Source: Candidatus Taenariivivens baikalensis
Lineage (GTDB): Bacteria > Omnitrophota > Omnitrophia > Omnitrophales > Aquincolibacteriaceae
Direction: 5' to 3'
NCBI GenBank assembly: GCA_009691445.1
Contig: SICL01000005.1
Span: 2,446 to 66,445, forward strand
DNA length: 64,000 nucleotides
Shown: positions 25,242 to 53,036 of the stretch, piece by piece
Layout: every line of letters begins with the position of its first letter
Numbering within the stretch: the stretch's first letter is position 1
Position numbers and translations under genes: made by a program
The notes under the pieces: generated by a model
What the model was told of the DNA's origin: nothing
Seen by the model: the letters and a program-made list of their open reading frames with translations, nothing else
Database searches by the model: none

Positions 25242-25374
25242 AGGGACGGTTCTTAATAACTTGTTTAAGGCCAATAAGTTATGAAAGGCTCGTCCCTTTT
25301 TGGTTTAAAAATCAAAAAAGGGACGGTTCTGTCCTATCCTCATATGAATCATAGAGTTACTGAGAACCGTCCCT
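25242..25374. repeat. Family-3 hairpin repeat (AGGGACGGTTCT...AGAACCGTCCCT), compound copy.
   Basis: Nested inverted repeats of GGGACGG(TTC) between the fadJ stop and the 25381 start. Confidence 0.75.
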
Positions 25375-25380
25375 GATTTT

Positions 25381-26193
25381 ATGCTGACACTGGATCAACT
25401 GCTGCAAAAACTCTGGATGGACTACTCGTCGATGAATCAGCAGGCCGGAGCTATTCACCGCGCGCTTGAAAAACGCGGAGAGAAAGTGGTCAATGATCAT
25501 TTGGCCTTCCGAACCCTGAACCTTTCCAAGGTTGGAATCGACGTTTTGGCGGAGCCCTTTTTAAAATTCGGCTACAAGGACGCCAGTGGTAAAGGATATT
25601 TCTTCAAAGAGAAAAAACTCTTCGCTCGCCACTACGAACATTCTGATTCAAATCAACCCAAAGTCTTTATCAGCGAACTTCTCGTGGAGGAATTTTCTCC
25701 AACTCTTCAAAAAACCGTGAAAGATATGATCGACCAGGTTCCAGACAAGCTGACGCAAACCGAAGACTTCCTGATTTCAGGATTCGCGTGGAAGCCCGTG
25801 AGCTGGCAGGTCTACCAGGATCTTCTCAAAGAGAGCGAATACGCGGCTTGGGTGGCAGCCTTCGGATTTCGTGTCAATCATTTTACGGTGTCTTACAATG
25901 CGCTCACCAGTTTCAAGGATTTTCCTGATCTCAACGGGTTCGTTAAAGGTGCTGGATTTTCTTTGAATGCAGCCGGAGGGGAGATCAAAGGATCTAAAGA
26001 TGTTTATCTCGAGCAGTCGTCCACGCTCGCGCATCCGGTGGAGGTTCAGTTCTCAGACCGTAAGGCTGTCATTCCGGCCTGCTATTATGAATTTGCGCGT
26101 CGGTATCCGATGCCGAACGGAAAATTATTTCAGGCATTCCTTCCCGACTCCGCAGACAAAATTTTCGAGAGCACGAATTTTCGTACAATATAG
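25381..26193 (+). CDS. DUF1338-family protein (HglS/YdcJ-like putative 2-oxoadipate dioxygenase/decarboxylase).
   Basis: VNDHLAFRTLN and a C-terminal ACYYEFARR block resemble the DUF1338 metal-binding motifs. The assignment is tentative. Confidence 0.45.
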   Translation: MLTLDQLLQKLWMDYSSMNQQAGAIHRALEKRGEKVVNDHLAFRTLNLSKVGIDVLAEPFLKFGYKDASGKGYFFKEKKLFARHYEHSDSNQPKVFISELLVEEFSPTLQKTVKDMIDQVPDKLTQTEDFLISGFAWKPVSWQVYQDLLKESEYAAWVAAFGFRVNHFTVSYNALTSFKDFPDLNGFVKGAGFSLNAAGGEIKGSKDVYLEQSSTLAHPVEVQFSDRKAVIPACYYEFARRYPMPNGKLFQAFLPDSADKIFESTNFRTI

Positions 26194-26289
26194 GGACAGC
26201 GCTCATCGACTCATGCGTATTTGTCAAATTTTGTTAAAAGTAATCAACGAATATGATTCAATACGACGGCTTCAATGAGACCTGTCCCT
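26192..26289. repeat. Family-3 hairpin variant (GGGACAG-CGCTCAT ... ATGAGAC-CTGTCCC).
   Basis: Imperfect inverted repeat. The right arm contains the ATG of the CYTH gene. Confidence 0.55.
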
Positions 26290-26799
26290 GGCTCCTACGA
26301 AATCGAACAAAAATACCGGATCAAAAATCCAAAAGTAATTCGTGCGGCCCTCAAAAAACTGGGAGCCCGGAAAATCGCTTCCGGATTTGAGAGTAATGAG
26401 CTTCTCGACCGGAAAGGGGAGCTGCGGAGAAAAAAATCTGTGCTCCGTCTTCGCCAGTACGGAAAGTCCACGATTCTGACGTTTAAAGGCCCGCGCCTGA
26501 AGGTGAAAGGATCCTACAAGAAGCGCGTCGAGATTGAAACGGACGTGGAAGGTGTGAGCGCCAAGGGGATTCTTGAAGCGCTGGGCTACAAAACTTTTTT
26601 CCATTATTCCAAAACCCGTGAGCAATATAGCTACTCTTCGTGCTCCATCGTTCTCGATCATCTTTCCAAACTGGGATGGTTCCTTGAGATCGAAGGTTCT
26701 CCGTCTAGAATTGGCCGTATTGCCAAGCAACTTAAGTTTCAAAAATCAGACGAAGAGCCTCTCTCCTATCCGCAATTGTTGAGTGTCGAGATTAATTAG
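26275..26799 (+). CDS. CYTH-domain protein (CyaB-type class IV adenylate cyclase or triphosphate-tunnel metalloenzyme).
   Basis: N-terminal YEIEQKYRI is the CYTH ExExK signature. About 170 aa with alternating K/E strands (LRLRQYG...LTFKGP...KRVEIET). The first 5 codons (MRPVP) are encoded by a repeat arm. Confidence 0.65.
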   Translation: MRPVPGSYEIEQKYRIKNPKVIRAALKKLGARKIASGFESNELLDRKGELRRKKSVLRLRQYGKSTILTFKGPRLKVKGSYKKRVEIETDVEGVSAKGILEALGYKTFFHYSKTREQYSYSSCSIVLDHLSKLGWFLEIEGSPSRIGRIAKQLKFQKSDEEPLSYPQLLSVEIN

Positions 26800-26981
26800 A
26801 TTCTCCCCATTTTTTTTCTTCAGCCTCTTAGGTCCGCATTTCGTAGGTAGAAAGAAACAAATTTGTAGATATTTTTTATAATAACGATTAATTAATATTA
26901 AAATAGTCATATTATCGCCAAAACGGGCGAAAAATAAAAAAAAACAGGTTGGCATGTTAATTGTAGTAATAGGTTTATCTT

Positions 26982-29900
26982 ATGAGAAACCGAAGGGTAG
27001 AATTACTGACGCATTTTGGGAGCATTGGTTCAAGCCTAAAACAGGGTGCTTTTTCATGTCCGGATAATAAACGCATTAAAAAAGAATTTAAAACCAGTAC
27101 CCGCTTATCTTTTCCAAAGTTTTCTCTCCATCGGTTGACCTATGATATCTCCAAGCCCCGTCCCTCACTAAAATTCCTGTCCTTCGTCCTGCTTTTGACA
27201 TTCTCCATTCAGGCCTTCGGCTGGGCGGAGACCGGACAAGTCTTCCCGGGATCGATTCGAATGCATCCGGTGGAAAATATTTTTCCGGAAGTGACGCAAG
27301 CGCCGAGCTCTTTTTTTATCCCGCCGTCCTTCGGAGAAATAAAAAAATCATTCACAGGATCCCGGGAAGAAAAAATTATCCTGATCCAGGACGCTCATGT
27401 TCATGAAGAGGCGCAGAGGAATATCGCACAAATGCTAAATTTTCTTTCCCGGGAGAAGAGGCTTCACCAGATTTATGTTGAAGGGGCTGAAGGTGTGATC
27501 GATATGACGCCTTATTCCTTTTTCCCTGATCTGAAGATCCGCCAGGAAACGGCGGATTATTTCCTCACAAAAGGAAGGCTCACTGGGGCGGAATACGCCG
27601 CCATCGTTACCACACCGGTATTATCCCTTTATGGTATTGAAAACCGCCAGGTCTATGAAAATCACCGGAAGGTTTATTTGGAAGGAATTGAAATCCAGAA
27701 AAAAAATCAGGCAATTCTGGAACCGCTTGGGAAGGCCCTTAAAGAAATGGCCCGTTTTGCCATGTCGCCGGAAGTCATGGAGTTTTACCGCAAGACAGGG
27801 TTTTTAGAACCCCAAGAAAAGGACTGGAATCTTTACTTTGACGAATTGCTTCGACAAGCTGGATTTCTGGGAATTGCTATTGATTCGGATTCGCAGATGA
27901 AAACCATGGAACGCCTTTCGGCACTTGGAAAAGAGATTGATTTGAAAAATCCGGATGCGGATCTTAAAAAGTTTCCTGAAACTGAAAAAACCCGGCAAGG
28001 CAGGCTTCAATACCAGGAATATCTCCGGCTTTCCAAGAAAATTTCCGGGGATTTTTTTACGGAAGCCTACGGACTTGAAAAAAAAATTAAGAGGATGCTT
28101 TTAAAGACTCCGGAGGAAAAACGGCTGAATGATTTTTTGGAAGTGGTGGAAATTTACAGAAAATTTTTTGATTTTTCCCTAACGACTCAGGAAGTGGAAT
28201 GGTTTTATTCCCGTCGTTTGAAATGGGACATGAAAGCCCTGCGTGATTTCTTGACGCCTCTGCTGAAGCGTTATCACTTCACCTACGAACTTCCTTTGTC
28301 TCTGGAGTCCATGGATCAGGATCTGTTGCGGATAGAAAAATTCTACCTTTTAGCTTTGGACCGTGATCGTATTCTGATTCAAAATGCTATTGGACACATG
28401 AAGACGACGGGCCTTAAACAAAGTGCGGTTATCACCGGTGGTTTTCATACGCCCGGGATTGAAAAATTTCTCCGGGAACAGGGCTATTCTTATGTTGTGG
28501 TGAGTCCCCGCATGACTTCCATCCCAGATGTTAAAAAGCAAGAAGCTCTCTACCGGCAAGCCGTTCTAGGACGTCCTTTGCTTGTAGAGAAAATTCTTGT
28601 TTCCCTGGATCTGTCGCGCCAAGCGCCGATGAAGGATTTGCAGTATCAAATGACGCCATGGCTGATGACACCCAATCCAAAATTTTCTTATCCATTTATC
28701 TGGCTTGAGACGGTAAGAGGTATTTTTAAATCAGGAAATCCAGACGTATTGTTTCATCGCCTTAAGATTGCGGCGGACAAGCTTCCTCCTGGTTCCAGAA
28801 AAGAGGCAGATGCGGTTTATCATGAGTTAGAAGGGGGCGTTCTTCAATCTTCAGAATCCGGAATGCAATATTATTGGAGAAAGATGTCGCAAGGAATTTT
28901 TTTGCGGCTTACAGCGGGCAGTAACAAAAAAATACCGAACCGCTCAAGAGGGGGGAAAAGCGGCAAAGAAATTTTCCCCCTGATTGATTTTGGTCATGAC
29001 TGGTTGGAAGGCGATCAAGTTGATTCCGATCTGGTCTCTAATGAAGTTGTGAGGATTCTATCCTCCGATTTGCCGTCACGAATCCCGTTGTTGATGGGAC
29101 GAAGCAGTGATTCATTCCAAAAACGTTCCGAAGTGCGAAGTCCATCCGTGACTTCAGCTCTCAAGCGCGGTACGAGGACGACCGCCGATTTAAATCTCCA
29201 GTTAGACGATTTGTGGAAGCCCATGGATGCTGAATTAGAAAAAGCGACTGGTGTTTCCTTAGACCGGCGTGCTTCGGGGGAGACTTTGTCGGGAGCTGCG
29301 GTCGGTGAAGATTATCTGGATAAAGCCTATGTCGTTGCTTTTTTGTGGGGACTAGGCTGGACGACACTTTCGCTGTTCCACATTTTTCCAGTCACCTTTA
29401 TTTCAGGGGTCCTGTTTTTTTGGGCCTTTACACTTGGAAACTTTCTTTTTAAGATTTTTGCCCATGAATGGGTGCATGCTTTTTTTGCCCGAGTATTTGG
29501 CGCTAAAGAAGCCTTAACGATTAAAAATTTAACCGGAAATCTCGGATGGGATTTTCTAGGGGGAATGGTCCTGTTTCCCTTGCTTCGGTATCCCCGGGTT
29601 AATGTGCCGTCGATTCAAGGGACTCTGCGCGAAACCTTTGCACTGAAAGTGGCCTTTCCGGTCCATCTGATGGCAGTTGCAGCGCTCTACTTACACCGCG
29701 GAGAAGTTTTGGATTGGCTTACTCCCTTAGTCAGCGGCATTACTTCGGATCCTTTCCTTCTTTCCTGGCTCCTTTTTAGTTTTATCGGAGGCGGGATCTT
29801 ATCGGTCGCCGAAGGGTTTTACTCTGATTATTTAAACAAAAAACGAGAATCGGGCGAGCTTGCCTGCGGAGTCTCCTCGGTGATCACGATTCTTCGTCCG

Positions 29901-32900
29901 GACGGAGAGGCCCTGCGCATTCATTTTGATTACGGCTATGACAAAACAGATTTCGAAATCTTTATGGAAGGGGCGGAGAATCAATCGCGTCATCAAAAAG
30001 GAATTCACGACGGACGTTTGGGAGACACCATTGAGTTTCGCCGTAAGCGATTAAGAAAAATCCTGAGTGAAGTTGCTCCTGACATTGAAGTGCCCGAGCG
30101 GCTTTTTGACAATTACTTCCGGATTGTGGACAAAGTTCGCGACCGGGGAGACCAGGCGAGCGGGGAAGTCTCCATGGTCACGGCCGGAGGAGGAAGGGTT
30201 ATTTTTGAAGTCACCGGACACGGACGCTTTTTAAGCGCGGGAACCATGAGTCAAGAAAACGCTCAGCTTCATCAATGGTCTCCCACTGAAGAAATTAATT
30301 ATGTGGGCGTGAACCAGGGCAAGTATGAAGTGCTAAGGCGCAACCGGGCCCTTTATGTTCCGCATAACGGCGACGGCAATGTGTTTAAGGTTTCGGGCCG
30401 GTGGCTGGGAACAGGGCTCGTAAGAACGCTTCTCTTTAATGTTTTTCATATGAAGCATCCCGCGAGCTCGGATACTCCGATAGTTGCGGGATTTATGGAA
30501 TATTTTTTGACCCAGGGGAGTCTGAAGTTTTCCGCGCGGTTTGCGTTTGCAGAAACCATGACAGAGCTGCCCGCGTCTTCCCCGGAATCAATTAAGGGAT
30601 GGTTCAAGGACAAATGGGCGAGATTTAAAGAGCGCCGGGGTTGGTACAATTTTAGCCGTTCGATTTATCCTTCTCCCGAACAGTTGAGCGTGTGGGAAAG
30701 AGAAGCGTTTTTGCCGGCTTTCCGGAGATTTGCCTCTTCCGGCGGACAAGCCCCTTCCGGTTTTTATCTGTCGTCCATGTCTCCCGCAGATCGTCGAACC
30801 TTAGCGGATTTATTTGAGCGTGAGATCCTGAAAAAAGCGGACTTGTTTGTTCAGCCGGTTTTTTTCGATCCAGCTAAGCGAAAGTTGTTTTTAGAAACCA
30901 TGGTCAATGCTTTTTGCGACCAGGATTTTGAGCAGGCAAGTTTGATGGCGAAAAAAAGAATGAAAGGGACTTTTGGGGTGCGGCCTGTTTATTCCCTTGA
31001 GCCGGGGACGATGATCGCGATTTCGGACAGCCAGGGAATGTTTTTTGGCATTAATCCGGGTGAGACCTCACAGCAGGGTCCTGAAGTTTACGCAGCTTCC
31101 GAACCAGCGGCGTTTAAGGAACGTTTCGAGGTCAACGGACGTTTGCAGCAGCTCCCTTACCGGATTGGCCTTAATTCGACACGAGGCGATGTGGTGATCA
31201 TGAAGTTTGAAAATAATCCTCTTCGCAAACCGACGGAACCTGCCCTGGGAGTTTATGGATACGCGACCAATGAAAAGAGTGACCAGCATCCCCTGGGCCG
31301 GCCCTTAACGGACCGGGAGCTTTATGAAATGACGGCTTTGATTCCCGGCAATCCGATGCTGAGTGTTCCGGAGCCCAAAAAAGACGGCAAGGCCACAGTC
31401 GCCCATGATCTTGAGAAAATTTCGGGGGTTGTGGCCAGGATTGACGCGGATTGGCAGCAAAACGATGCGCTACCGGTTTTGGAGCAGAGTTTCAACCGTC
31501 AAAGCGGTTTTGAGTTTCTGCGTCTGCTCATGGTGCTTGAAGCGTTTAAAAGGCTCCAGGCAGCAACGGGACGTCTGCTTTCCGATCCTAAAGACCGCGC
31601 TCGGATTCAGAAAAAGTTTTTCGCCTTGATCACTCTTTTTTATTTTGGCAATACTTCGGGGCAGAGGATCACTCAGAGTGCATTTCAAACCCGGTATCTT
31701 AAAATTTTCAATTTTGAGCTTCAACAGATTTTGGGACCTTCCGCCGCACCCGCGTACAACCGGTTCGAGGATTTAAAAGGCCTGGATGATCTACTCCCAG
31801 GCACTAAAGAAGTGGACATCTTGATTCCGGCCGTCCATATCAGTCTTGTAAGCGCCGTTAAAATCAAGGCGCGTCTTGAAAAGTGTTTTCCGATTCTCAA
31901 TATCCAGCTTCCGGATGCTAATCATCTTTTGGAATCTTTGAAACAGAAAGTGATTTATCAAGGCGACCGGAAGGTCGTGGTGAAAGACAAGAATGAAGTG
32001 GAGTACATCATTACCGCGGATACGATCAGCATTCACGATTCCATTTCCGGAATGACCTTTCCAACTTATAAAACTTCAGAACCAATGGAAGTCCTTTTGA
32101 ATGCGTTAAATCAGAATCAGGGGACACCCTTTTTGGGCCAGAGAGTTTGGGGATTCGCCGGAGAGCATGACACCTTGATGGCGGAAAGTGCCTTAGGGCA
32201 GGGTTTTTATAAAAACGCTCCGTTTAAACGTCATACCTTCAGCACGTTGAGCGGACCGGGAGAAGCGGAACCTGCGACCGTGACTTCCATCTCTCAGGAT
32301 CATACGCTGACCCGCCTCAGCGAATTTTTGGTCACTCAAATGCAGCGGGCTTACGGCACGGAGGTCCGGCCTTTTGGGACGCTGGTGGATCAAGATATTT
32401 TACAAACAACCAATGAATTTATCCGTGAATCTCAGGAAAAGCATCTTCCGGAAATAACAAATAAAAACGGGTCGGTGGCCCGGCAGTTTTATCAAGTCGG
32501 AAAAGGACTGCTCTGGTATCTGCTGGAAAATCCGATCGGGACGCTTGCGGCTATTTTAATTTTTGCTGTGGCGATGAGCTTTGGAATCTCCATTGCGCCC
32601 TCGGCCACCATCATTGATCCGCTGATGCAGGTTTTTCCAGCATTGCGGGAAATCTCGTGGGTGATGAAATTGATCGGCCTTTTCTTTAATGTCACCTTTG
32701 TGCCAGGCTTGGGATATGTGATCGGACGTGTGATTGGAAAAGCGATGGGGAGATATCCGACTTCTCTGCGTTTCGGAGGAACGAAAATTTTTATCGCTTC
32801 CGATTTTCATGAAAGCTCTTCATTTCGCATTGAGCAGTTTGTCATGAAGCTTTGGTCCAAGGCCTGGGGATTTATGGATGTTAATACCTTTTTTGGAGAT

Positions 32901-40034: not shown

Positions 40035-41837
40035 ATGCCGGCACTTCCTCTGGTTATTTTTACCCTTTGCGCGTTTGTCATCGGCTACCGCTATTACAGC
40101 GCCTTTCTTGCCGCCAAAGTCTTTGTCCTCGACGCCGGGCGCGTGACACCGGCCCACACTCACCGCGATAATCAAAACTATTATCCGATGTCAAAATGGG
40201 TCCTCTTCGGTCATCACTTTGCCGCGATTTCTGGCGCGGGTCCGCTCATTGGTCCGGTGCTTGCCGCGCAATTTGGTTATCTTCCCGGACTTCTCTGGAT
40301 TGTGATCGGCGTGGTGCTCGGGGGTGCGGTGCAGGATTTTGTGATCCTTGTTGCATCGACCCGGCGGGAAGGAAAATCCCTGGCAGAAATTGCCAAAGCC
40401 GAGATCGGTCCCGTAGCCGGAATTGCCTGCGCTATTGCGATTGTGTTCATTGTGATCGTGGCCCTTGCCGGGCTTGGGTTTGTGCTTGTGAACGCGCTGG
40501 CGGAAAGTTCCTGGGGCGTGTTTACGATTGCGGCCAGTATTCCGATTGCCATGCTGATGGGCCTCTACGTCTTTGCCTGGAATCAGGGGAGCCATAAAGC
40601 CACCAAGCAAGCCACCGTCGTGGGAGTGATCCTTCTTTTTCTGGCCGTGGTTTTGGGAAAATGGGTTCCGGAAATTCCCTGGCTGAATTCTATTTTTCTT
40701 TTAGACCGCCAGAAAATTATTATTGCGATCGCGGTTTACGGATTTTTCGCTTCGGTCCTTCCAGTCTGGCTGCTGCTTGCGCCGCGCGATTACCTCAGCT
40801 CTTATATGAAGCTCGGAACCATTTTTGTATTGATTGCAGGCATTATCTTTGTCAATCCAACGCTTCATTTTCCGGCACTGACTCCGTTTATCCACGGTGG
40901 CGGCCCGATTGTTCCCGGCAAAGTCTGGCCGTTTTGTTTTATCACGATCATGTGCGGCGCGGTTTCCGGATTTCACGCCCTCGTTTCTTCGGGAACAACT
41001 CCCAAAATGATTTCGAGTGAATGTCACGCGCGTTCAATCGGATACGGCTGTATGCTGCTTGAAGCCTTGGTGGCCGTGGTTTGTCTTGTGGCCGCGTCGT
41101 CAATGCACCCGGGAGATTATTACGCGATCAATGTTTCGCCGGAAACTTACTCGCATCTGGTTCAAACACTTGGGATTCATCCGGTCAATCTGGATTGGCT
41201 GACGAAAGAAGTGGGAGAGAAAAGTTTGGTCGGAAGAACCGGCGGTGCCGTGTCACTCGCAGTGGGAATGGCCCAGATTTTCAGTGCGCTTCCTTTTTTG
41301 AGCGGCTTTATGAAATACTGGTATCACTTCGCGATTATGTTCGAGGCGCTTTTTATTCTGACCACGATTGATGCCGGAACGCGCATTGCCCGTTTTATCC
41401 TTCAGGAACTTCTCGGAAATGTTTACGCGCCTTTTAAGCGTCCCGACTGGATACCCGGCAATCTCCTGGCCAGCTTTCTTGTGGTTTTCGGATGGGCGTA
41501 TCTGATCTGGAACGCGAGCATCAGTACGATCTGGCCGATGTTCGGAATCGCCAATCAGCTTTTGGCCGCCATTGCTCTTGCGATCGGAAGCGTGATTTTA
41601 GTTCAGATGAAGAAGGGGAGATATATCTGGGTCACGCTTGTTCCCATGATTTTCGTGACAGTCACCACGTTCGCGGCCGCTTATCAGATGATCGCTCATC
41701 ATTACTGGCCCAAAACCGCAACGCCCTTGATCATTTCCTTGAATATCGCGCTTATCATCATTATAAGCGTTTGCACCGTGATCATTTTCATCAGTGCCTT
41801 CCAAAAATGCCGGGGAGCCAGGGACAGGTCTCATTGA
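40035..41837 (+). CDS. cstA: Carbon starvation protein A (peptide/pyruvate transporter, CstA family).
   Basis: 600 aa polytopic. N-terminus [39 protein letters not shown] is diagnostic for CstA. Confidence 0.9.
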
Positions 41838-41916
41838 AGCCGTGGTATTTGATGAAGCGATTAAATCTGTTCAACAAAATTAGGTAAGTACAAATTTCTC
41901 AATGAGACCTGTCCCT
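41820..41916. repeat. Family-3 hairpin (AGGGACAGGTCTCATTG ... CAATGAGACCTGTCCCT).
   Basis: Perfect 17-nt inverted repeat. The left arm contains the cstA stop codon (TGA 41835-41837). The right arm contains the ATG of ORF 41902. Confidence 0.75.
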
Positions 41917-42150
41917 GACTGCCACTGCAAAACCACTCAAATGCTTTCTAATGAGGCAGCCGTTGAGATGGCGGAAAAACAGCTCATCAAGATCAAGGAT
42001 TTTCCAGACGCGTGGAAAATGCTGTATCAATGTTCCGCCTGTCTTCAATATTGGGAGCTTTCCTATCCCGCAGCAGGGGATGTGTGCTGCGTGGAGCCTG
42101 AGCTTTGCAAGTTAAGCCTTGAAACTGCCAAAGCGGACTACCATCTTTAA
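41902..42150 (+). CDS. Small Cys-rich hypothetical protein.
   Basis: 82 aa with CHC...CSAC...CC...C. The first codons (MRPVPD) come from the repeat arm. The real start may be the internal Met (MLSNEAAV). Confidence 0.3.
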   Translation: MRPVPDCHCKTTQMLSNEAAVEMAEKQLIKIKDFPDAWKMLYQCSACLQYWELSYPAAGDVCCVEPELCKLSLETAKADYHL

Positions 42151-42172
42151 AGTTCGTTGCACATTTATTGTT

Positions 42173-42915: not shown

Positions 42916-42917
42916 CA

Positions 42918-43678: not shown

Positions 43679-43702
43679 TACCAGTTTCATCTATCATTTT
43701 CG

Positions 43703-43784: not shown

Positions 43785-43800
43785 AAATAAACGAGTTGTG

Positions 43801-44547: not shown

Positions 44548-44553
44548 CAAATT

Positions 44554-44659
44554 AATAACCAAGATACAAGAAACAAGTGTCCAAACGGTTTGTCGTTTGC
44601 AGTTTATTTTTTGTAGATTTGGTTATTCTTTGGTTCTTGTAACTTGTTTCTTGGTTATT
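44554..44659. repeat. Family-2 palindromic repeat.
   Basis: AATAACCAAGATACAAGAAACAAG ... CTTGTTTCTTGGTTATT. Confidence 0.75.
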
Positions 44660-44671
44660 TAGGAATTGTAT

Positions 44672-45262: not shown

Positions 45263-45267
45263 CGCTT

Positions 45268-45517
45268 GTCATTGCGGACCTTTGCTGTCATTGAGGTCCT
45301 TTGGCTGTCATTGCGAGGAGCGATTTTTGCGACGAAGCAATCTCGGTTTGTGCACCGGGATTGCCGCGTCTCCGCCCAAGCGCGGGACTCGCAATGACAA
45401 AAAAAAACTACGCTATTACGAGCCCTTTCCCTTGGTGTCATTGCGAGCGGAGCGAAGCAATCTCGGGTTATGCTCCGGTTTGCCACGTCTCCGCCAAAGC
45501 GCGGGACTCGTAATGAC
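45268..45517. repeat. Family-1 repeat, tandem array of about 3 units.
   Basis: GTCATTGCGG..GTCATTGAGG..GTCATTGCGAGGAGCG...CTCGCAATGAC...GTCATTGCGAGCGGAGCGAAGCAATCTCGGGTTATGCTCCGGTTTGCCACGTCTCCGCC...CTCGTAATGAC. Confidence 0.8.
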
Positions 45518-45521
45518 GGAT

Positions 45522-46802
45522 TTAAGCCTTCTTAAACTGCTCCGCCTCCGTCGATCCCTTCATACTAAACGTCGATGATTGCCCGCCCGTGGCGATTTGA
45601 GTCACGGCATCAAAATAGCCGGTTCCCACAAATTCCTGATGCTTCACGGCTTCATAGCCCAGCTTTTCTGCGGCAAATTCCTCTTCCTGCAGTTCGGAAT
45701 AGGCGGCCATTCCTTTGGTTTTGTAATCCTTGGCCAGCATAAACATACTGTAATTGAGCACGTGAAATCCGGATAAAGTCACGAACTGGAATTTGTATCC
45801 CATCTTTCCCAGCTGTTCCTGAAACGTTTCGATGGATTTCTCGTCCAGATTCGATTTCCAGTTAAAGGACGGCGAGCAGTTATAGGCAAGAAGTTTTCCT
45901 GGGAATTTTTTATGGATGGCTTCCGCGAAAGTTTTGGCCTGTTGCAGATTGGGTTTGGAAGTTTCAAACCAGAGCAGATCCGCGTAAGGTGCGTACGCAA
46001 GTCCGCGGCTGATGGCTTGATCCAGTCCGGCTTTGACCTGATAAAATCCTTCATGCGTCCGGGTTCCATAGATAAAGGGCTGATCATAAGGATCCACGTC
46101 GCTGGTCAGAAGGGAAGCGCTGTCCGCATCCGTACGTGCGATCAACATTGTATCGACGCCGCAGACATCCGCGGCTAAACGCGCTGCAATTAACTTGGTG
46201 ATAAATTCCTGGGTCGGAACCAAAACTTTTCCTCCAAGATGCCCGCATTTTTTCACCGAGGCTAGCTGATCTTCAAAGTGAACGCCCGAGGCTCCTTCTT
46301 CGATCATCATCTTCATGATTTCAAACGCGTGAAGCGGTCCACCGAATCCGGCTTCGGCATCGGCCACAAGCGGCGCAAGCCAGTGAATGCTGTGGTCATC
46401 CTTGAGATGATGGATCTGATCTGTGCGCATCAGGGAATTATTGATCCGCTTGATCAGATAGGGGACGCTGTCGGACGGATAAAGACTTTGATCCGGATAC
46501 ATGCGCAGGGAATTATTCATGTCGGCCGCAACCTGCCAGCCGCTGACATAAATGGCTTTGAGTCCGGCCTTGACCTGCTGAATGGCTTGATTGCCCGTGA
46601 CCGCGCTTAGAACATGAACATAGGACTCATCATTCAGGAGCTGCCAGAGACGTTTGGCGCCGGCTTTGGCAATGGAGTATTCCCGGTGAATGGTGCCGCG
46701 AAGACGAAACACGTCCTCCGGTTTATAGGTACGCGTCACGCCTTTCCAGCGCGCCGAAGTTTTCCATTCCTGTCCAAGCTTTACGGTTTCGTTTAGATCC
46801 AT
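45522..46802 (-). CDS. aceA: Isocitrate lyase.
   Basis: Active-site KKCGHLGGK, plus [11 protein letters not shown] and ARTDA. 426 aa. Confidence 0.92.
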
Positions 46803-46827
46803 AAAATCTCCTTTTGAATTTTAGGCT

Positions 46828-47049
46828 GTCATTGCCCGCCAGAGGACGGATCCGTCCTTCGGCGGACGAGTCCCGCGCTTTGGCGGAGACGCGGCAATCT
46901 GACACGAAGTGTCATCCTGAACGAAGTGAAGGATCTCAGGATAAACTCCGCGACGGATCTCATTCCGAGATTCTTCACTTCGTTCAGAATGACAAAAAAC
47001 GTCAGATTGCTTCCTGCCTACCGGCAGGCAGGCGCTCCGCTCGCAATGA
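46828..47049. repeat. Family-1 compound repeat between aceB and aceA.
   Basis: GTCATTGCCCGCCAGAGGACGGATCCGTCCTTCGGCGG...GGCGGAGACGCGGCAATCT...CTCAGGATAAACTCCGCGA...GGCAGGCAGGCGCTCCGCTCGCAATGAC. Confidence 0.8.
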
Positions 47050-47058
47050 CAATGATTG

Positions 47059-48636
47059 TTAATCCAGATAATCGTAAGCAATGAGGGTTAAAAATTCTGG
47101 AAATTCTTTTTTCGTACTCATCGTTTCAAAAAGCTGGGAAGCGCGGGGGAACTGGCCCTTGTCAAAAACTTCTGGCCCGACAAGTGTCCGGATTTTTTCC
47201 AGCTCTTCCTGAATTAATTTCTTCAGAAGTTCCGGCGTAATTTCAAGCCATTCCCGGGTGACCGATTTGTGATGAATCCATTGCCAGACCTGGGAGCGTG
47301 AAATTTCAGCGGTCGCCGCGTCTTCCATCAGATTGTAAATGGGAACGCATCCCACGCCGCGCAGCCACGCTTCCAAATAAAGAATGCCGATATTCACATT
47401 CAATCGCAACCCTTTGTCCGTGACCGAACCTTCCGGCATCCGCAGGAGATCCTTGGCCGTGATTCGCACATCTTCCCGCAGGACATTCAGCTGATTTGCG
47501 GCAGGCATATGCTCGTCAAAGATTTCTTTAGCGATCGGAATCAAACCGGGATGAGCAACCCAGGTTCCGTCGTGACCGGCTTTCACTTCGCGGAGTTTGT
47601 CCGCCCCGACTTTTTCCATAGCCGCTTTGTTGGCGGCCGGATCAGATTTGATGGGGATCTGCGCGGCCATGCCTCCCATCGCGTGAATTCCGCGGCGATG
47701 GCAGGTCTGGATCAAAAGCTCCACATAAGCTTTGAGAAACGCATTGTCCATCGTGACCTCGGCGCGGTCGGGAAGGACAAAATTTTTATGATTCCGGAAT
47801 TTTTTGATGAAGCTGAAAATATAATCCCAGCGTCCGCAATTGAGTCCGGCCGAGTGATCGCGTAGTTCGTAAAGGATCTCATCCATCTCAAAGGCCGCAA
47901 GAATTGTTTCAATCAGGACCGTGGCGCGAATCGTTCCCGTTGGAATCCCAAGTTCAGTTTGAGAAAAATTAAACACATCATTCCAGAGCCGGGCCTCAAG
48001 ATGGCTTTCCATTTTCGGGAGATAAAAGTAAGGACCTGTACCTTGACTGATCAGTGTTTTGGCATTGTGGAAAAAGAAAAGCCCAAAATCAAAAAGCGAA
48101 GCGGAGATAGGATGTCCGTCGACAAGCAGATGTTTCTCCGATAAATGCCAGCCCCGGGGCCGCACCATCAAAGTAGCGATTTTTGGATTCAGGGCGTAGT
48201 GCTTTCCTTCCGGCGAATTAAAATCAATTTTCCGGTGAACGGCATTGCGTAAATTAATCTGCCCCTCCAGATTATTTTTCCAGGTCGGGGCATTCGAGTC
48301 TTCAAAGTCAGCCATAAAGACACAGGCACCGGAATTGAGGGCATTGACGATCATTTTTCGGTCCACCGGCCCGGTGATTTCAATGCGCCGGTCTTGAAGG
48401 TCATCAGGAATGGGCGCCACTTTCCAGCTGTCCTTACGGATCTTTTGTGTTTCCGGAAGAAAATCTGGAAGCTTTCCCTGATCAAGCTCCGCTTGACGAG
48501 TCTCGCGGTTCTTGAGAAGTGTCTGCCGCGTGGGTTCGAATTGCCGGGCAAGTTTGAGGAGAAAGGCAAGCGATGAGGGCGTCAGGATTTCCTGATGTTG
48601 AAAATTTAAGGAGTCGCGGACTTCAATATCTGTCAT
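47059..48636 (-). CDS. aceB: Malate synthase A.
   Basis: 525 aa. ...[11 protein letters not shown]... and [12 protein letters not shown] are catalytic-region motifs of malate synthase A. Confidence 0.92.
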
Positions 48637-48665
48637 TTTGAAACCTTTCTTATGTATAGGGTTGA

Positions 48666-48688
48666 CCTTATTTACGATCTAAATAAGG
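48666..48688. promoter_or_regulatory. Perfect 9-5-9 palindrome (CCTTATTTA-CGATC-TAAATAAGG) in the divergent aceB / liv promoter region. Candidate operator.
   Basis: It sits 30 nt upstream of the aceB start codon and 25 nt upstream of the livJ-like ATG, next to a TTGACC hexamer at 48662. Confidence 0.35.
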
Positions 48689-48713
48689 GTTTTATTGATT
48701 TTTATTTCATATC

Positions 48714-49895
48714 ATGAAAAAATACGCCCGCCAGCCAACCAACGAAGGAGCTTTCGTGAAACGGATTCATTTTGTCCTGATCGGTTCAGTCCTCGCGCTT
48801 TCATTCACCGGATGCACTCAGAATACTTCCCAGTCCAACGTCATTAAAATCGGATGCTCGGCTCCTTTAACCGGAGACCAGGCCCAGATCGGGATTGATA
48901 CCTGCCGCGGCGCGCAACTTGCCGTGGACCAGGCCAATCAAAAGGGAGAAGTCCTTCCAGGAAAAACTCTCGAGCTTTTGGAGCTGGATGATCAGCACAA
49001 TCCTGCCCAGGCGGTGAACGTCGCCAAAAAATACGTGTCTGATCCGGATGTGATTGCGGTAGTCGGCCATTTCAACTCCAGCTGCACCAAGCCGGCCTCA
49101 GCTATCTATAATGAAGGCGGGATGGTTCAGATCACTCCGGCCTCGACGAACCCCGAACTTTCCAAGCAAGGGTTCAAGACGTTTTTTCGAGCCGCTGCTA
49201 CGGATGATGTTCAAGGACCTGCAGCCGCCAAGTATGTTGCCTCCAAGCTCGGCGTGAAGCGTCTTTTTATCATTGATGATAAGACAACCTACGGAAAAGG
49301 TCTGGCGGATGAGTTTGAAAAGGAAGCGCGAAAACAATCGATCGAGATTCTTGGCCATGAGGGCATCACGCAAGGAGATAAAGATTTCACTCCGCTTCTG
49401 ACGAAGATTAAGCCGATGGATCCCGAACTGATTTATTTTGGCGGGATTTATCCGGAAGGTTCGCTTTTGATCCGGCAGGCGCGTGGGCTGAACATCACTT
49501 CCAAGTTTATGGGAGGGGACGGACTTGCGACGCCCATTTTTATTGAACTCGCTTCCAAAGAAATTGCGGAAGGCACTTATGCGAGCATGGTTGGAGGGGA
49601 TATGAGAAAGATTCCGAGTGCGGCGCAATTTATCAAGGATTACGAAGCCAAGTATGGAAGCATGGGGCAATGGTCGGCTTATGGTTTTGATTCCGCGAAC
49701 GTGGTGATTGAAGCGATCCGCAAGGCCGGTCAAAATAATCGCGAAGCGGTGCTTAAGGCCATGCGCGAAATACCCGTATTTAAGGGAGTGACCGGGGAAA
49801 TCATCTTTGATGAAAAAGGTGATAACAAGAATCAGTTTATTGGTGTCTTTAAAGTTGAAAACGGCGAGCTTACCTACGTGGGACCCGCAGCATAA
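48714..49895 (+). CDS. livJ: Branched-chain amino-acid ABC transporter substrate-binding protein (LivJ/LivK family, lipoprotein).
   Basis: Type-I periplasmic-binding fold motifs (IKIGCSAPLTGDQAQIG, VVGHFNSS, ITPASTNPELS). Lipobox LSFTGC. Confidence 0.8.
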   Translation: MKKYARQPTNEGAFVKRIHFVLIGSVLALSFTGCTQNTSQSNVIKIGCSAPLTGDQAQIGIDTCRGAQLAVDQANQKGEVLPGKTLELLELDDQHNPAQAVNVAKKYVSDPDVIAVVGHFNSSCTKPASAIYNEGGMVQITPASTNPELSKQGFKTFFRAAATDDVQGPAAAKYVASKLGVKRLFIIDDKTTYGKGLADEFEKEARKQSIEILGHEGITQGDKDFTPLLTKIKPMDPELIYFGGIYPEGSLLIRQARGLNITSKFMGGDGLATPIFIELASKEIAEGTYASMVGGDMRKIPSAAQFIKDYEAKYGSMGQWSAYGFDSANVVIEAIRKAGQNNREAVLKAMREIPVFKGVTGEIIFDEKGDNKNQFIGVFKVENGELTYVGPAA

Positions 49896-49907
49896 GACAT
49901 TGCAGCG

Positions 49908-50034
49908 AAATAACCAAGAAACAAGATACAATCACCAAGTAATGACCAAGTGTCCAAGAAACAAGAAACAAATGTTTAGGCCGTGTTCTTTGCTTTTTAG
50001 TCATTTGTTTGGCAACTTGTACCTTGTCTCTTGG
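49908..50034. repeat. Family-2 palindromic repeat.
   Basis: AAATAACCAAGAAACAAGATACAATCACCAAG ... CTTGTACCTTGTCTCTTGG. Confidence 0.75.
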
Positions 50035-50060
50035 AATTTTGAAGAGCATTCAGGTAATCA

Positions 50061-50978
50061 ATGACGCCTCTTGATGTTTTTTTGCAGCAGATCGTCAACG
50101 GTCTTACGATTGGAATGATCTACGCGCTGATTGCCCTGGGCTACACGATTGTTTACGGCATTGCGCAGCTGATCAATTTTGCCCACGGTGAAATTTTTAT
50201 GGTGGGCGCCTACTTTGGACTTCTGGCGTATACGCTTATTCAATTGCTTCCTGTCGGGTCCGTTGGATTTTTGTTTATCCTTCCCCTGATTTTTCTTTTT
50301 GTGATGACGCTCACCGCGCTGCTTGGAGTGATCGTCGAGCGTTTTGCCTACCGGCCTTTGCGGGAGGCGCCGCGCCTTGCTCCGCTGATTACGGCCATCG
50401 GTGTTTCGTTTCTGCTTCAAAATGCCGTGATGATTCTTTTTGGCCCCGCGGATAAACGTTTCCCCAGTCTTATCGAAATCCACAAACTTTCTTTTCATCA
50501 TGTGACGATCACCAATCTTCAAATCATGATTACGGGTTTTTCTCTGATCCTGATGCTCGTGCTGCACACCTTCATTAAATACACGCGAATGGGAAAGGCG
50601 ATGCGGGCCCTGGCCGATGACCGTGAGGCGGCCTGTCTGATGGGAATTAATGTGAATCAAATTATCTCCATTGCTTTCCTGATCGGCTCAGCGCTGGCCG
50701 GAGCCGGAGGCATCATGTTCGGGATGTACTACAACACGATTAATTTTCATGACGGTTATCTCGCGGGATTGAAAGCTTTTTCCGCGGCCGTGCTGGGAGG
50801 AATCGGGAATATTCCTGGAGCGATGGTTGGCGGAGTGTTGCTCGGTATTCTCGAAGGAATGGGTGCCGGTTACATTTCTTCGGAGTGGAAAAACGTATTC
50901 GCTTTTTTCATCTTGATCCTTATTTTGCTTTTTCGTCCGCACGGGCTTTTGGGATCACGAGTGGTTAAAAAAGTTTGA
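50061..50978 (+). CDS. livH: Branched-chain amino-acid ABC transporter permease LivH.
   Basis: N-terminal LQQIVNGLTIGMIYALIALGYTIVYG and about 8 TMs typical of the LivH family. Confidence 0.85.
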   Translation: MTPLDVFLQQIVNGLTIGMIYALIALGYTIVYGIAQLINFAHGEIFMVGAYFGLLAYTLIQLLPVGSVGFLFILPLIFLFVMTLTALLGVIVERFAYRPLREAPRLAPLITAIGVSFLLQNAVMILFGPADKRFPSLIEIHKLSFHHVTITNLQIMITGFSLILMLVLHTFIKYTRMGKAMRALADDREAACLMGINVNQIISIAFLIGSALAGAGGIMFGMYYNTINFHDGYLAGLKAFSAAVLGGIGNIPGAMVGGVLLGILEGMGAGYISSEWKNVFAFFILILILLFRPHGLLGSRVVKKV

Positions 50979-51084
50979 AATAACCAAGAAACAAGATCTA
51001 AGATACAAATAATAACCAAGTGGCAATAACCAAAAAGAATTTGTTTTTTGTCTCTTGGTCATTATTTGGACACTTGTGTCTTGG
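50979..51084. repeat. Family-2 palindromic repeat.
   Basis: AATAACCAAGAAACAAGATCTAAGATACAAATAATAACCAAG ... CTTGGTCATTATTTGGACACTTGTGTCTTGG. Confidence 0.75.
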
Positions 51085-51100
51085 AACTTTAAAAAATAGT

Positions 51101-52093
51101 ATGAAAAAATTACTAACATTTTCACGATTTAAGAATCTGGCAATCCTGCTAGTTTTTTTTATTTTCCCGCTGATTGACCGAAGTCCTTATCACATTGATG
51201 TGATGGTTTCGGCGGGTGTGTTTATAATCCTCGCCCTGGGGTTGAACGTGATTGTGGGATATGCGGGCATTCTTAATCTTGGATACGCGGCTCTCTTTGC
51301 CTGCGGGGCTTATTTATATGCGATTTCAAACATTCACTTTCATATTCCGTTCTGGACCGGACTTTTCATCAGCGGTTTTGGAACCGCTCTTTTTGGAATG
51401 CTGCTCGCCTTTCCAGCGCTTCGGCTTTCCGGAGATTATCTGGCGATCGTAACTTTAGGAGCTGGAGAGATTGTCCGCATTATCCTCAACAACGTGGATC
51501 AAGTCACCGGCGGTCCGAATGGACTCTTGGGAATCGATCATCCAACCTTTTTCGGATTACGTTTTGGCGTTAAATCCGGGCCTTATTACTATTTAATTTT
51601 TGTCATGGTCATCCTGCTCGTTTTTTTTCTGAAGCGTCTTGAATCTTCACGACTCGGACGCGCCTGGACGGCCATGCGTGAAGATGAACTGGCTGCTTCC
51701 AGCATGGGCGTGAATCTGATGTGGGCAAAACTCACGGCGTTCGGCATCGGCGGATTCATTGCAGGAATCGCCGGCTGTGTGTTTGCCTCAAAACAGGGAA
51801 GTATTTCACCGGATAGTTTTGATTTCGTGGTCTCCGTGATGGTGCTTGCGATGGTGGTGCTGGGAGGTTTAGGTACGATTCGCGGCGCAATCACCGGCGC
51901 CCTCATCTTAAGTCTTCTTCCGGAATTTTTGCGCGGGTTTGAAATGTACCGGATGCTCTTTTTTGGTCTTGCCATGATTCTGATGATGCTTTTTCGTCCG
52001 CAGGGGATTTTCGGAGAAGTCCGTTACAAGACCCGGTTCTCTTCGGGAAAAAAGGGACGGTTCTCATTGACGCCAGAAGCAAGGAAACAATAA
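51101..52093 (+). CDS. livM: Branched-chain amino-acid ABC transporter permease LivM.
   Basis: Polytopic LivM-type permease. ATG at 51101 is preferred over the track start at 51020, which lies inside the repeat. The last 14 codons are encoded by the family-3 hairpin arm. Confidence 0.85.
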   Translation: MKKLLTFSRFKNLAILLVFFIFPLIDRSPYHIDVMVSAGVFIILALGLNVIVGYAGILNLGYAALFACGAYLYAISNIHFHIPFWTGLFISGFGTALFGMLLAFPALRLSGDYLAIVTLGAGEIVRIILNNVDQVTGGPNGLLGIDHPTFFGLRFGVKSGPYYYLIFVMVILLVFFLKRLESSRLGRAWTAMREDELAASSMGVNLMWAKLTAFGIGGFIAGIAGCVFASKQGSISPDSFDFVVSVMVLAMVVLGGLGTIRGAITGALILSLLPEFLRGFEMYRMLFFGLAMILMMLFRPQGIFGEVRYKTRFSSGKKGRFSLTPEARKQ

Positions 52094-52149
52094 TTTGAAT
52101 TATTTAAATCATTTGATCATCGCAACAAAATTTGCTGAGAACCGTCCCT
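52054..52149. repeat. Family-3 hairpin repeat (GGGACGGTTCTCATTGA ... TGAGAACCGTCCCTG), about 96 nt.
   Basis: About 90% identical to the copy at 52941-53036. The left arm overlaps the livM 3-prime end. Confidence 0.8.
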
Positions 52150-52156
52150 GGCGCGT

Positions 52157-52957
52157 ATGAAAATCGAACAGCTTTCTGAACTTGAAATTTTAAGCGTGGA
52201 CCGCCTGAGCAAACATTTCGGCGGCGTTTCTGCTCTCGAAGACATCAGCTTCGCGGTTCCCCAGGGAAAAATCGTGAGCGTGATCGGCCCCAATGGCGCT
52301 GGCAAGACCACGCTCTTTAATTGTATTACCGGACTTTATACACCGGACGAAGGATCGCTTTTTTTTGGCGATGCCCAGATGCTCCTGAACGGACTTCCGT
52401 GTTATGAAATCGCGTCCAAGGGAATCTCTCGCACCTTTCAGACCATCCGCTTATTCAAACAAATGACCGCGCTTGAAAATGTGATGGTGGGAGCTCATTC
52501 CAAAACACGCGGCGGAGTTTTGAGCGCTCTTTTCCGGCCGCGCTGGGTTTCGGTCGGTGAAAAAAAACTGGAACGGCAGGCACAGCGTCTGCTTTCTTTT
52601 TTCGGACTCGCCTCCAAATCGCAGGAACTTGCGCAGAATCTTTCTTACGGACATCAGCGTAAACTGGAAATTGCGCGGGCCCTGGCCTCCGAACCCAAGC
52701 TGCTGCTTTTGGATGAGCCGGCCGCGGGAATGAATCCTCGGGAAAAGGACGAGCTGCTGGGTTATATTCGTGCGATCCGTGAGCGGGGAATCACGATTAT
52801 TTTAATCGAGCATGATATGAAAGTCGTGATGCCGATCTCGGATTATATTGTGGTGCTGGATTACGGAAAAAAAATTGCGGAAGGCATTCCTAAAGAAATT
52901 CAGAATAATCCGCGCGTCATTGAAGCGTACCTCGGCAAAGGGGACGGTTCTCATTGA
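52157..52957 (+). CDS. livG: Branched-chain amino-acid ABC transporter ATP-binding protein LivG.
   Basis: Walker A GPNGAGKTT, signature LSYGHQRKLEIARAL, Walker B LLLDEPAAGMNP. The stop codon lies inside the hairpin arm (...GKGDGSH*). Confidence 0.9.
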   Translation: MKIEQLSELEILSVDRLSKHFGGVSALEDISFAVPQGKIVSVIGPNGAGKTTLFNCITGLYTPDEGSLFFGDAQMLLNGLPCYEIASKGISRTFQTIRLFKQMTALENVMVGAHSKTRGGVLSALFRPRWVSVGEKKLERQAQRLLSFFGLASKSQELAQNLSYGHQRKLEIARALASEPKLLLLDEPAAGMNPREKDELLGYIRAIRERGITIILIEHDMKVVMPISDYIVVLDYGKKIAEGIPKEIQNNPRVIEAYLGKGDGSH

Positions 52958-53036
52958 GGCTGGCGGCAAGGAAATATTAATTTGAATCATTTAAATTATT
53001 TGATCATCGCAACAAAATTCTATGAGAACCGTCCCT
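52941..53036. repeat. Family-3 hairpin repeat, about 96 nt.
   Basis: GGGACGGTTCTCATTGAGGCTGGCGGCAAGGAAATATTAATTTGAATCATTTAAATTATTTGATCATCGCAACAAAATTCTATGAGAACCGTCCCTG. Confidence 0.8.

What the first reader, a model, noticed from the sequence alone, without database searches (positions are those of the whole stretch)
25242..53036. Family 3 hairpin repeats (GGGAC[G/A]G-TTCTCATTG ... CAATGAGAA-C[C/T]GTCCC) that donate stop and start codons to neighbouring genes.
Copies lie at 25242-25374, 26192-26289, 41820-41916, 52054-52149 and 52941-53036. The left arm contains TCATTGA and provides the TGA stop of cstA (41835) and of livG (52955), giving the shared C-termini ...RSH* and ...GSH*. In livM the same arm is read in another frame and encodes the last 14 residues. 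The right arm contains ATGAGA and supplies the annotated ATG of the CYTH gene (26275) and of the Cys-rich ORF (41902), both beginning MRPVP. The two liv copies are about 96 nt and about 90% identical. So these are mobile hairpins inserted at gene boundaries that have been co-opted as terminator, stop and start sequences.
Basis: seen in the sequence. Interest (0 to 1): 0.55.

Follow-up and report, generated by a model that had tools for sequence, protein, structure and literature searches.

The report
Small palindromic mobile repeats at gene junctions
These are about 95-base palindromic insertion elements in an uncultured Omnitrophota genome that sit exactly between neighbouring genes and now supply some stop codons and at least one start codon, which is a known kind of behaviour for bacterial palindromic repeats.

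Summary
GGGACRGNNCT occurs 12 times in the window against 0.7 expected. It forms four long hairpin elements of 95-96 nt and two short ones of about 53 nt. All lie between co-directional genes.

They are insertions. In relatives with 75-82% identical proteins, the liv genes overlap and the cstA 3' end carries no element. In an 88-90% relative, gene spacing leaves no room for an element at livM/livG or after cstA, but does at livG/livF.

No target-site duplications are seen. The arm core, GGGACGGTTCT(CATTGA), is identical to a motif found in rumen and gut Firmicutes. There it sits in hairpins that flank, in inverted orientation, a 245-aa IS200-like Y1 (RayT/TIRYT-type) transposase gene in 7 of 7 loci.

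My best reading is REPIN-like or "TIR-repeat"-like non-autonomous elements, moved in trans by such a Y1 transposase. No such gene was found in the 64 kb, so that step is inferred.

Donation of stop codons to cstA, livG and livM is confirmed. Donation of a start codon is well supported for CYTH and doubtful for the Cys-rich ORF. A terminator role is not supported.

This is a new member of a known kind, of modest interest.

The parts
25235..25381 (.). Composite hairpin holding two short units (25243-25295, 53 nt; 25320-25373, 54 nt). It fills the gap between the fadB-like gene (stop at 25220) and the HGLS-like gene (ATG at 25381).
   Evidence: The outer 27-nt arms are 89% complementary. Four GGGACG-type arms are present. 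RNA MFE is -62.8 kcal/mol, z = -9.4.
26193..26288 (-). Long copy (96 nt) of the GGGACAGG subfamily, inverted relative to the other three. Its first G is the last base of the TAG stop of the HGLS-like gene (25381-26193). The ATG at 26275 in its other arm starts the CYTH ORF.
   Evidence: 73% identical to the cstA copy when reverse-complemented. The CYTH Pfam domain starts at residue 8.
41813..41923 (+). Long copy of the GGGACAGG subfamily (core 41821-41915, 95 nt; arms extend to 25 nt). It holds the TGA stop of cstA (41835-41837) and the ATG at 41902 of the MRPVP reading of the Cys-rich ORF.
   Evidence: The arms are 92% complementary. RNA MFE is -49.1 kcal/mol, z = -8.0.
52054..52148 (+). Long copy (95 nt) of the GGGACGGTT subfamily at the livM/livG junction. 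It encodes the last 12 residues and the TAA stop (52091-52093) of LivM. The livG ATG lies 8 nt after its end.
   Evidence: The element is absent from the same junction in L131 and L132. By gene spacing it is also absent in the 90% relative.
52941..53035 (+). Long copy (95 nt) at the livG/livF junction. It encodes DGSH and the TGA stop (52955-52957) of LivG. The livF ATG lies 12 nt after its end.
   Evidence: L131 and L132 have overlapping livG/livF with no element. The 90% relative has a 109-nt gap there, enough for an element.
40035..41837 (+). cstA. The Pfam CstA domain covers residues 3-548. The last 5 codons and the stop lie in the element's core arm (GGGAC onward), and three more codons (GAR) lie in the extended arm.
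26275..26799 (+). CYTH-domain gene. Codons 1-5 (MRPVP) lie in the element's core arm and codons 6-7 (GS) in the extended arm shared with the cstA copy.
41902..42150 (+). Cys-rich small ORF with a weak Imm27 match. It starts either at the element's ATG (41902) or at the in-frame ATG at 41941.
51101..52093 (+). livM (start as called in the public record), with its C-terminal tail read from the element.
52157..52957 (+). livG, flanked by an element on each side.
53048..53755 (+). livF, directly downstream of the second liv copy.

Best explanation
Family 3 is a family of small non-autonomous palindromic insertion elements in a Candidatus Omnitrophota genome. Each element has two inverted arms around an AT-rich spacer. 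The arms carry the core GGGAC(G/A)G(T/G)TCT, usually followed by CATTGA. The spacer is about 60 nt in the long form and about 30 nt or less in the short form.

I propose that a Y1 (HUH) tyrosine transposase of the RayT/TIRYT type copies them in trans. The enzyme would recognise the core on single-stranded hairpin DNA, as is thought for REPINs and for the 'TIR repeats' of TIRtrons.

They are seen only at junctions between co-directional genes. The likely reason is that insertions anywhere else in this compact genome are lost. An insertion at a junction is tolerated for two reasons. Every reading frame entering the element meets a stop within 4-27 codons. An ATG lies 14 nt from nearly every end and reads outward.

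As a result, cstA, livG and livM now end inside an element, and CYTH starts inside one.

- Shown: the repeat family, its hairpin form, its insertion status, the lack of target duplications, and the codon donation.
- Inferred: the transposase, the single-strand mechanism, and any effect on expression.
For: **Repeat family**
- It occurs far above chance.
- The four long copies all measure 95-96 nt and fall into two subfamilies. The arm changes in the second subfamily are matched in both arms.

**Hairpins**
- z-scores run from -3.7 to -9.4, with similar stability on both strands.

**Insertion status**
- In L132 and L131 (LivG 75% and 78% identical), livM/livG overlap by 4 nt and livG/livF overlap by 8-35 nt, with no element.
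- L133 (CstA 82%) has no element after cstA.
- In the 88-90% relative, gene coordinates give a 2-nt livM-livG gap and a 30-nt gap after cstA, but a 109-nt livG-livF gap.
- No direct repeat flanks any copy.

**Link to a Y1 transposase**
- The same 11-17-nt core recurs in Firmicutes genomes and in rumen and gut metagenomes.
- In all 7 loci with a full-length gene for a 245-aa Y1_Tnp protein, that gene is bracketed by core-bearing hairpins, + on the left and - on the right.
- That orientation matches the two arms of the window elements.
- The protein has the HUH motif and a RYIxxNP tyrosine motif.
- It matches NCBIfam 'REP-associated tyrosine transposase' better than IS200, but below the curated cut-off.
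- Published TIRtron repeats share a GGGGWSAS motif, which the arms here match at 7 of 8 positions (PMC3733652; PMC6006769).

**Other Omnitrophota**
- Mini versions between co-directional genes are found in L035 (33 nt, sharing a TAG stop) and L133 (28 nt).

**Frame closure**
- All 24 frame-by-orientation readings of the long copies hit a stop.
- 7 of 8 ends carry an outward ATG that stays open to the end.
Against: - No Y1 transposase gene is present in the 64-kb window.
- None is on record in about 10 kb of called genes to the left of the window.
- None was found in any Omnitrophota DNA read here.
- The link to the Firmicutes system rests on a shared short motif, and that system was found by searching with this motif.
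- In Firmicutes the core usually lies in the loop of a small hairpin. In the window it lies in the stem of a long one.
- The arms lack the GTAG head of classical REPs.
- The closest relative's DNA could not be read, so the recent presence/absence calls rest on gene spacing alone.
Confidence: 0.6

Rival explanations
1. They are ordinary MITEs. That is, they are deletion derivatives of a DDE-transposase insertion sequence, moved by cut-and-paste through their terminal inverted repeats.
For: Their size (95 nt), their 14-25-nt terminal inverted repeats and their AT-rich core are typical of bacterial MITEs.
Against: No target-site duplication is visible at any of the six units, even at the liv copies, which still share 87% identity. 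The only protein gene found bracketed by this core is a Y1 transposase, not a DDE enzyme. No DDE insertion sequence with these ends turned up in the loci fetched.
Confidence: 0.2
2. They are kept mainly as RNA-level control elements within operons, for example as mRNA-stabilising or processing hairpins, attenuators, or devices that uncouple translation of neighbouring genes. On this view their spread is secondary.
For: All copies lie between co-directional genes and would be transcribed. The hairpins are strong. The liv genes, which overlap in relatives, are separated here. REPs are known to affect mRNA decay and 3' ends (PMC3733652).
Against: Folding is equally stable on both strands, and arm mismatches are not G-U type. 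One of four long copies is inverted. No Rfam family matches. Only one of the six units is followed by a T-run, and the scan calls no terminator at any of them. Relatives manage without them.
Confidence: 0.12
3. They are binding or recombination sites for a host protein, such as integron attC-like sites or a nucleoid or regulatory protein site, rather than mobile DNA.
For: The core is strictly conserved across distant phyla, and in one metagenome contig (L125) the hairpins separate many small unrelated genes, much like cassettes.
Against: The arms lack the attC core sites. GTTCTCA is not GTTRRRY, and TGAGAAC is not RYYYAAC (read directly). The flanking genes in the window are housekeeping operons. 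The sites are absent from orthologous loci. In Firmicutes the core brackets a transposase gene.
Confidence: 0.04

Closest known systems
REPINs (REP doublets forming hairpins) with RAYT transposases (Bertels and Rainey 2011, PMC3116915; Nunvar 2010, PMC2817692)
   Same: Two inverted short repeats around a spacer form a hairpin of about 100 nt. The elements are extragenic and non-autonomous. The presumed partner is a Y1 HUH transposase whose own gene is flanked by the same repeats, as seen here in the Firmicutes loci. No target duplication is produced.
   Different: There is no GTAG/GGAG head. In the window the single arms are not themselves small palindromes. No RAYT was found in the sequence available.
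TIRtrons, TIRYT and 'TIR repeats' (Di Nocera et al. 2013, PMC3733652), which correspond to subclass 2.1 TnpA-REP with a C-terminal HTH (Quentin et al. 2018, PMC6006769)
   Same: The Y1 transposase is larger than IS200 TnpA and has a C-terminal extension. It is flanked by inverted repeats with a G-rich motif: published GGGGWSAS against GGGGACGG and AGGGACAG here. Moderately abundant families of the same repeats are arranged as dimers.
   Different: The core here continues as GGTTCT and misses the published consensus at one position. In Firmicutes it sits in a hairpin loop. Quentin et al. reported finding no REP-like sequences next to subclass 2.1 genes. Omnitrophota hosts are not named in the passages of those papers that I read.
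Bacterial MITEs that reshape gene ends (Neisseria Correia elements, enterobacterial ERIC, Rickettsia RPE); named from my own knowledge except RPE (PMC3733652)
   Same: These are small palindromic insertions close to or inside genes that are co-transcribed, alter C-termini or insert in frame. REP termini are reported to 'often provide the stop codon' of flanking ORFs (PMC3733652).
   Different: Correia and ERIC elements have target duplications or a TA target and partners of other kinds. Those families are unrelated in sequence to this one.
IS200/IS605 family ends (from my own knowledge)
   Same: They use a Y1 HUH enzyme, have subterminal hairpins recognised as single-stranded DNA, and make no target duplication.
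   Different: IS200/IS605 ends are asymmetric rather than a long inverted repeat, and insertion is next to a fixed tetra- or pentanucleotide. No fixed flank is evident here beyond a frequent A before GGGAC and TG after GTCCC.

Membership tests
REP/REPIN-RAYT | Each repeat unit is a 20-40-nt imperfect palindrome with a conserved GTAG/GGAG head | tested here: not met
   The window arms (GGGACGGTTCTCATTGA) have no GTAG head and no self-complementary flanks.
REP/REPIN-RAYT | Two units in inverted orientation around a spacer, folding into one long hairpin | tested here: met
   The arms are 14-25 nt and 89-92% complementary. The spacers are about 60 nt. Fold z-scores for the four long copies are -4.2 to -8.0.
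REP/REPIN-RAYT | A cognate Y1 transposase gene in the same genome, flanked by the same repeats | not testable with these tools
   None is in the 64-kb window, nor among the genes on record for about 10 kb to the left. The rest of the MAG could not be read.
TIRtron / TIRYT TIR repeats | Inverted repeats carrying the GGGGWSAS motif | tested here: inconclusive
   GGGGACGG (52941 copy) and AGGGACAG (41820 copy) each match 7 of 8 positions (consensus from PMC3733652).
TIRtron / TIRYT TIR repeats | The repeats bracket a Y1 transposase gene that has a C-terminal HTH extension | tested here: met
   This is met only in the Firmicutes loci that share the core, in 7 of 7. It is not shown for any Omnitrophota genome.
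DDE-type MITE | Target-site duplication flanking the terminal inverted repeats | tested here: not met
   The flanks of all six units share no direct repeat of 2 nt or more. Comparison with the empty sites in L131 and L132 shows none either.
DDE-type MITE | A full-length insertion sequence with the same ends | not tested
   None was noticed in the loci fetched.
Integron attC site | Core sites R'' (RYYYAAC) and R' (GTTRRRY) at the two ends | tested here: not met
   The only GTT and AAC in the arms are GTTCTCA and TGAGAAC, which do not fit.
Intrinsic terminator | G+C-rich hairpin followed directly by a run of T | tested here: not met
   The terminator scan of 40000-54000 calls none of the three elements there. 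Read directly, only the short unit at 25243-25295 is followed by a T-run.
Described RNA family (Rfam) | Match to a curated covariance model | tested here: not met
   The window matches only a tRNA. Nine loci rich in the core give no match.

The most novel reading that the evidence does not exclude
GGGACGGTTCT may be a recognition signal for the HTH-bearing (TIRYT, subclass 2.1) branch of Y1 HUH transposases that is shared across phyla. That would give this branch the REP-like partner earlier surveys did not find. The Omnitrophota elements would then be a derived form whose arms have been shaped to carry a stop and an outward start, so that they can settle between translationally coupled genes without killing either one. 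In effect they would be a junction-adapted mobile element rather than a passively tolerated one.
Probability: 0.2. Interest if true: 0.55.

Novelty: new member of a known kind. Interest (0 to 1): 0.35.

Why it matters
The finding shows how small palindromic elements remodel gene ends in a compact, uncultured genome. Overlapping, translationally coupled liv genes have been pushed apart, and several proteins have acquired repeat-encoded tails or heads. This matters for annotation, because MRPVP-type starts and RSH/GSH tails recur for a trivial reason.

It also links an Omnitrophota repeat to a Y1-transposase repeat system that is abundant in rumen and gut Firmicutes and is absent from Rfam. That link gives a concrete DNA substrate for testing TIRYT-type enzymes, whose targets are poorly defined.

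Tried and rejected
- **Genome-collection scan with the 17-mer.** About a third of the hits were chance matches with no repeat structure.
- **Viral contigs.** The 19-mer found nothing, so there is no sign of a phage carrier.
- **Literature search for the core sequence.** It returned only unrelated primers.
- **Rfam.** Nothing matched, in the window or in the core-rich loci.
- **Search for a Y1 transposase in the window.** tblastn and a profile built from the seven Firmicutes proteins found nothing.
- **Profile search of the protein database.** The listed hits that carry an organism name are all Firmicutes (Butyrivibrio, Lachnospiraceae, Oscillospiraceae, Clostridia), so it gave no Omnitrophota partner.
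- **Extending the window.** To the right, the protein was not on record. To the left, there was no transposase among the genes on record.
- **DNA of the closest relative (ERZ27296333).** It was not available.
- **attC and terminator readings.** Both were considered and rejected on sequence grounds.
- **Reconstructing the exact ancestral junctions.** Removing 93, 95 or 96 nt gives different plausible C-termini. Removing 93 nt from the livG copy gives LGKG*, as in the 90% relative. The exact element boundary and any target preference therefore stay open.
- **Frame closure as evidence of design.** Stops in all frames of an AT-rich 95-mer are not in themselves surprising.


Full report

Yes. Direct reading shows the repeat at all five stated places. 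GGGACRGNNCT occurs 12 times against 0.69 expected, with no shuffle reaching 12. The 17-mer GGGACGGTTCTCATTGA, allowing up to 3 mismatches, occurs 9 times against 0.24 expected.

The units are:
- four long copies: 26193-26288, 41821-41915, 52054-52148 and 52941-53035;
- two short ones: 25243-25295 and 25320-25373, which together form a 147-nt composite hairpin at 25235-25381.

All four long copies measure 95-96 nt from GGGAC to GTCCC. They fall into two subfamilies:
- The liv pair has GGGACGGTT arms and is 87% identical.
- The cstA/CYTH pair has GGGACAGGT arms, is 73% identical, and its arm changes are mirrored in both arms.
- Identity between the subfamilies is about 52%. A shared interior block, AACAAAATT, fixes orientation. 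By that block the CYTH copy is inverted.

A profile search found no further copies in the window. A second assembly of run SRR8561390 matches window 50292-53873 exactly over 3582 nt.

**2. Relation to genes**

The window comes from a Candidatus Omnitrophica MAG. A 100% CstA match lies on a 94.7-kb NCBI contig, and the LivG and CstA relatives that carry names are Omnitrophica.

All six units sit in five short gaps between co-directional genes on the + strand.

| Gene | What the element supplies |
|---|---|
| cstA | ends ...RDRSH*, TGA in the left arm |
| livG | ends ...GDGSH*, same TGA |
| livM | its last 12 residues and its TAA, read in another frame |
| gene at 25381-26193 | the last base of its TAG stop |
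| CYTH (26275) | its start, MRPVPGS; Pfam CYTH domain starts at residue 8; no other canonical start upstream in frame |
| Cys-rich ORF | possible start at 41902, but an in-frame ATG at 41941 lies where a weak Imm27 match begins |

The CYTH start is the best-supported case of a donated start. The Cys-rich ORF does not need the element's ATG.

Genes in this window generally lack Shine-Dalgarno sequences, so the absence of one says nothing either way.

**3. Are they insertions?**

Yes, relative to other Omnitrophota.
- In L132 and L131 (LivG 75% and 78% identical), livM/livG overlap by 4 nt and livG/livF overlap by 8-35 nt, with no element.
- L133 (CstA 82%) has none after cstA.
- The closest relative (sample ERZ27296333; LivG 90%, CstA 88%) gave no DNA. 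Its gene coordinates show a 2-nt livM-livG gap and a 30-nt gap after cstA, both too short for an element. Its livG-livF gap is 109 nt, enough for one.

So the livG/livF copy may be older and shared, while the other two are recent.

The C-terminal tails replaced by the elements are not conserved among relatives. The residues after AYLGK in LivG, and after SAF(Q/K)K in CstA, vary freely.

No direct repeat flanks any unit.

**4. What moves them?**

Scans of public collections with the arm sequence brought up an abundant repeat in rumen and gut Firmicutes. Related copies also occur in a Prevotella genome.

In that repeat, the invariant core GGGGACGGTTCT lies in the loop of a small hairpin. The stem is (A/G)AGTCAnnG ... 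CnnTGACT(T/C).

I took 102 copies that do not carry the scanned 17-mer. In these, stem pairs 4-8 are 64-75% Watson-Crick, against 9-44% when the partner is slid. Several pair types occur per position.

In a few genomes the core itself forms the stem, as in GGGACGGTTCTCATTGAGAACCGTCCCC. That is the arrangement seen in the window.

Seven of the fetched loci carry a full-length gene for a protein of about 245 aa that matches Pfam Y1_Tnp. These proteins have:
- an HVH (HUH) motif and a RYIxxNP tyrosine motif;
- a conserved C-terminal extension with a weak HTH match;
- a best NCBIfam match to 'REP-associated tyrosine transposase', at 46-61 bits, below the cut-off of 80.

In all seven loci the gene is bracketed by core-bearing hairpins, + upstream and - just after the stop. 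That orientation matches the two arms of the window elements.

This is the anatomy published as REPtrons and TIRtrons. TIRYT genes are flanked by inverted repeats sharing GGGGWSAS, some of which form repeat families (PMC3733652). These proteins correspond to subclass 2.1, which has a C-terminal DnaA_C/HTH domain (PMC6006769).

The inference is that the window elements are the non-autonomous partners of such an enzyme.

The weak points are:
- no Y1 gene is in the window or in the adjoining genes on record;
- the profile search returned only Firmicutes among the hits that carry organism names;
- the Firmicutes system was found by searching with the window's own motif.

In support, other Omnitrophota contigs carry mini versions between co-directional genes. 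L035 has a 33-nt one that shares a TAG stop. L133 has a 28-nt one.

**5. What do they do to the host?**

The hairpins are strong on both strands. They show no G-U pattern and no Rfam match. Only one of the six units is followed by a T-run, and the scan calls no terminator at any of them. A dedicated RNA or terminator function is therefore not supported.

All 24 frame-by-orientation readings of the long copies meet a stop within 4-27 codons. Seven of eight ends carry an ATG 14 nt from the terminus that reads outward. This explains why insertions at junctions are survivable and why the same short peptides recur. Frame closure in an AT-rich 95-mer is not in itself remarkable.

REP termini supplying stop codons, and REPs inside genes, are already described (PMC3733652).

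**6. Verdict**

This is a real repeat family of insertion origin, probably mobilised by a Y1 transposase. It is a new member of a known kind.

The terminator and co-option claims go beyond the evidence.

The most interesting side result is the core conserved across phyla and its hairpin partner for TIRYT-type transposases.

Noticed in passing
window 13676-13810, 44546-44660, 49908-50042, 50978-51090: A second, unrelated palindromic repeat family (AAATAACCAAGAAACAAGATAC ... GTATCTTGTTTCTTGG) fills the livK-livH and livH-livM gaps. Together with Family 3, all four internal junctions of livKHMGF hold a hairpin repeat. In L132 the same genes overlap.
   Followed up: partly
window 10081-10156, 11295-11341, 42198-42344, 43689-43768, 45329-45510, 46835-47010, 53770-53945, 56602-56648: A G+C-rich repeat family (CGAAGCAATCTCGGG ... 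GGGACTCGCAATGACCGAAAA, with inner palindromes such as TCCGCCGAAGGACGGATC) lies just downstream of the Cys-rich ORF and of livF, among other places.
   Followed up: no
loci L118, L125, L046, L093, L096 and others (rumen and gut Firmicutes): Small hairpins with an invariant 11-12-nt loop, GGGGACGGTTCT, and a covarying stem. They are often followed by a T-run, are very dense (12 in 11 kb of L125), and flank a RayT/TIRYT-type gene. They have no Rfam family.
   Followed up: partly
L007 (Prevotella sp. tf2-5), 10 sites in 8 kb: The same GGGGACGGTTCT core occurs with quite different flanks (TTTG ... GAATGATCCA), in inverted pairs 140-166 nt apart. This suggests a Bacteroidota version of the element.
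   Followed up: no
L135 3989-4030 (groundwater Omnitrophota relative): Two copies of the palindrome GGGACAGTCCC, flanked by ATCA ... CCCTGAT, lie in frame inside a 2-oxoacid dehydrogenase E2 gene, just before the conserved LPDFSKWG. They encode GTVPERRGQS. This may be an intragenic mini-insertion in a linker.
   Followed up: partly
window 52067-52094: A sigma-70-like match (TTGACG, 16 nt, AATAAT; 10 of 12) lies inside the livM/livG element and faces livG. The number of such matches in the region does not exceed shuffles.
   Followed up: no
window 53022-53144: The outward ATG of the livG/livF element opens a 40-codon ORF (MRTVPDEAV...) that is out of frame with livF and overlaps its start. It is a likely source of spurious gene calls.
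   Followed up: no
window 26982-35021 and 35026-35119: A 2679-aa ORF lies directly downstream of CYTH. It is followed by a purine-rich inverted repeat, GAGGGAAGAGAGAAGAGGGAAG / CTTCCCTCTTCTCTCTTCTC.
   Followed up: no
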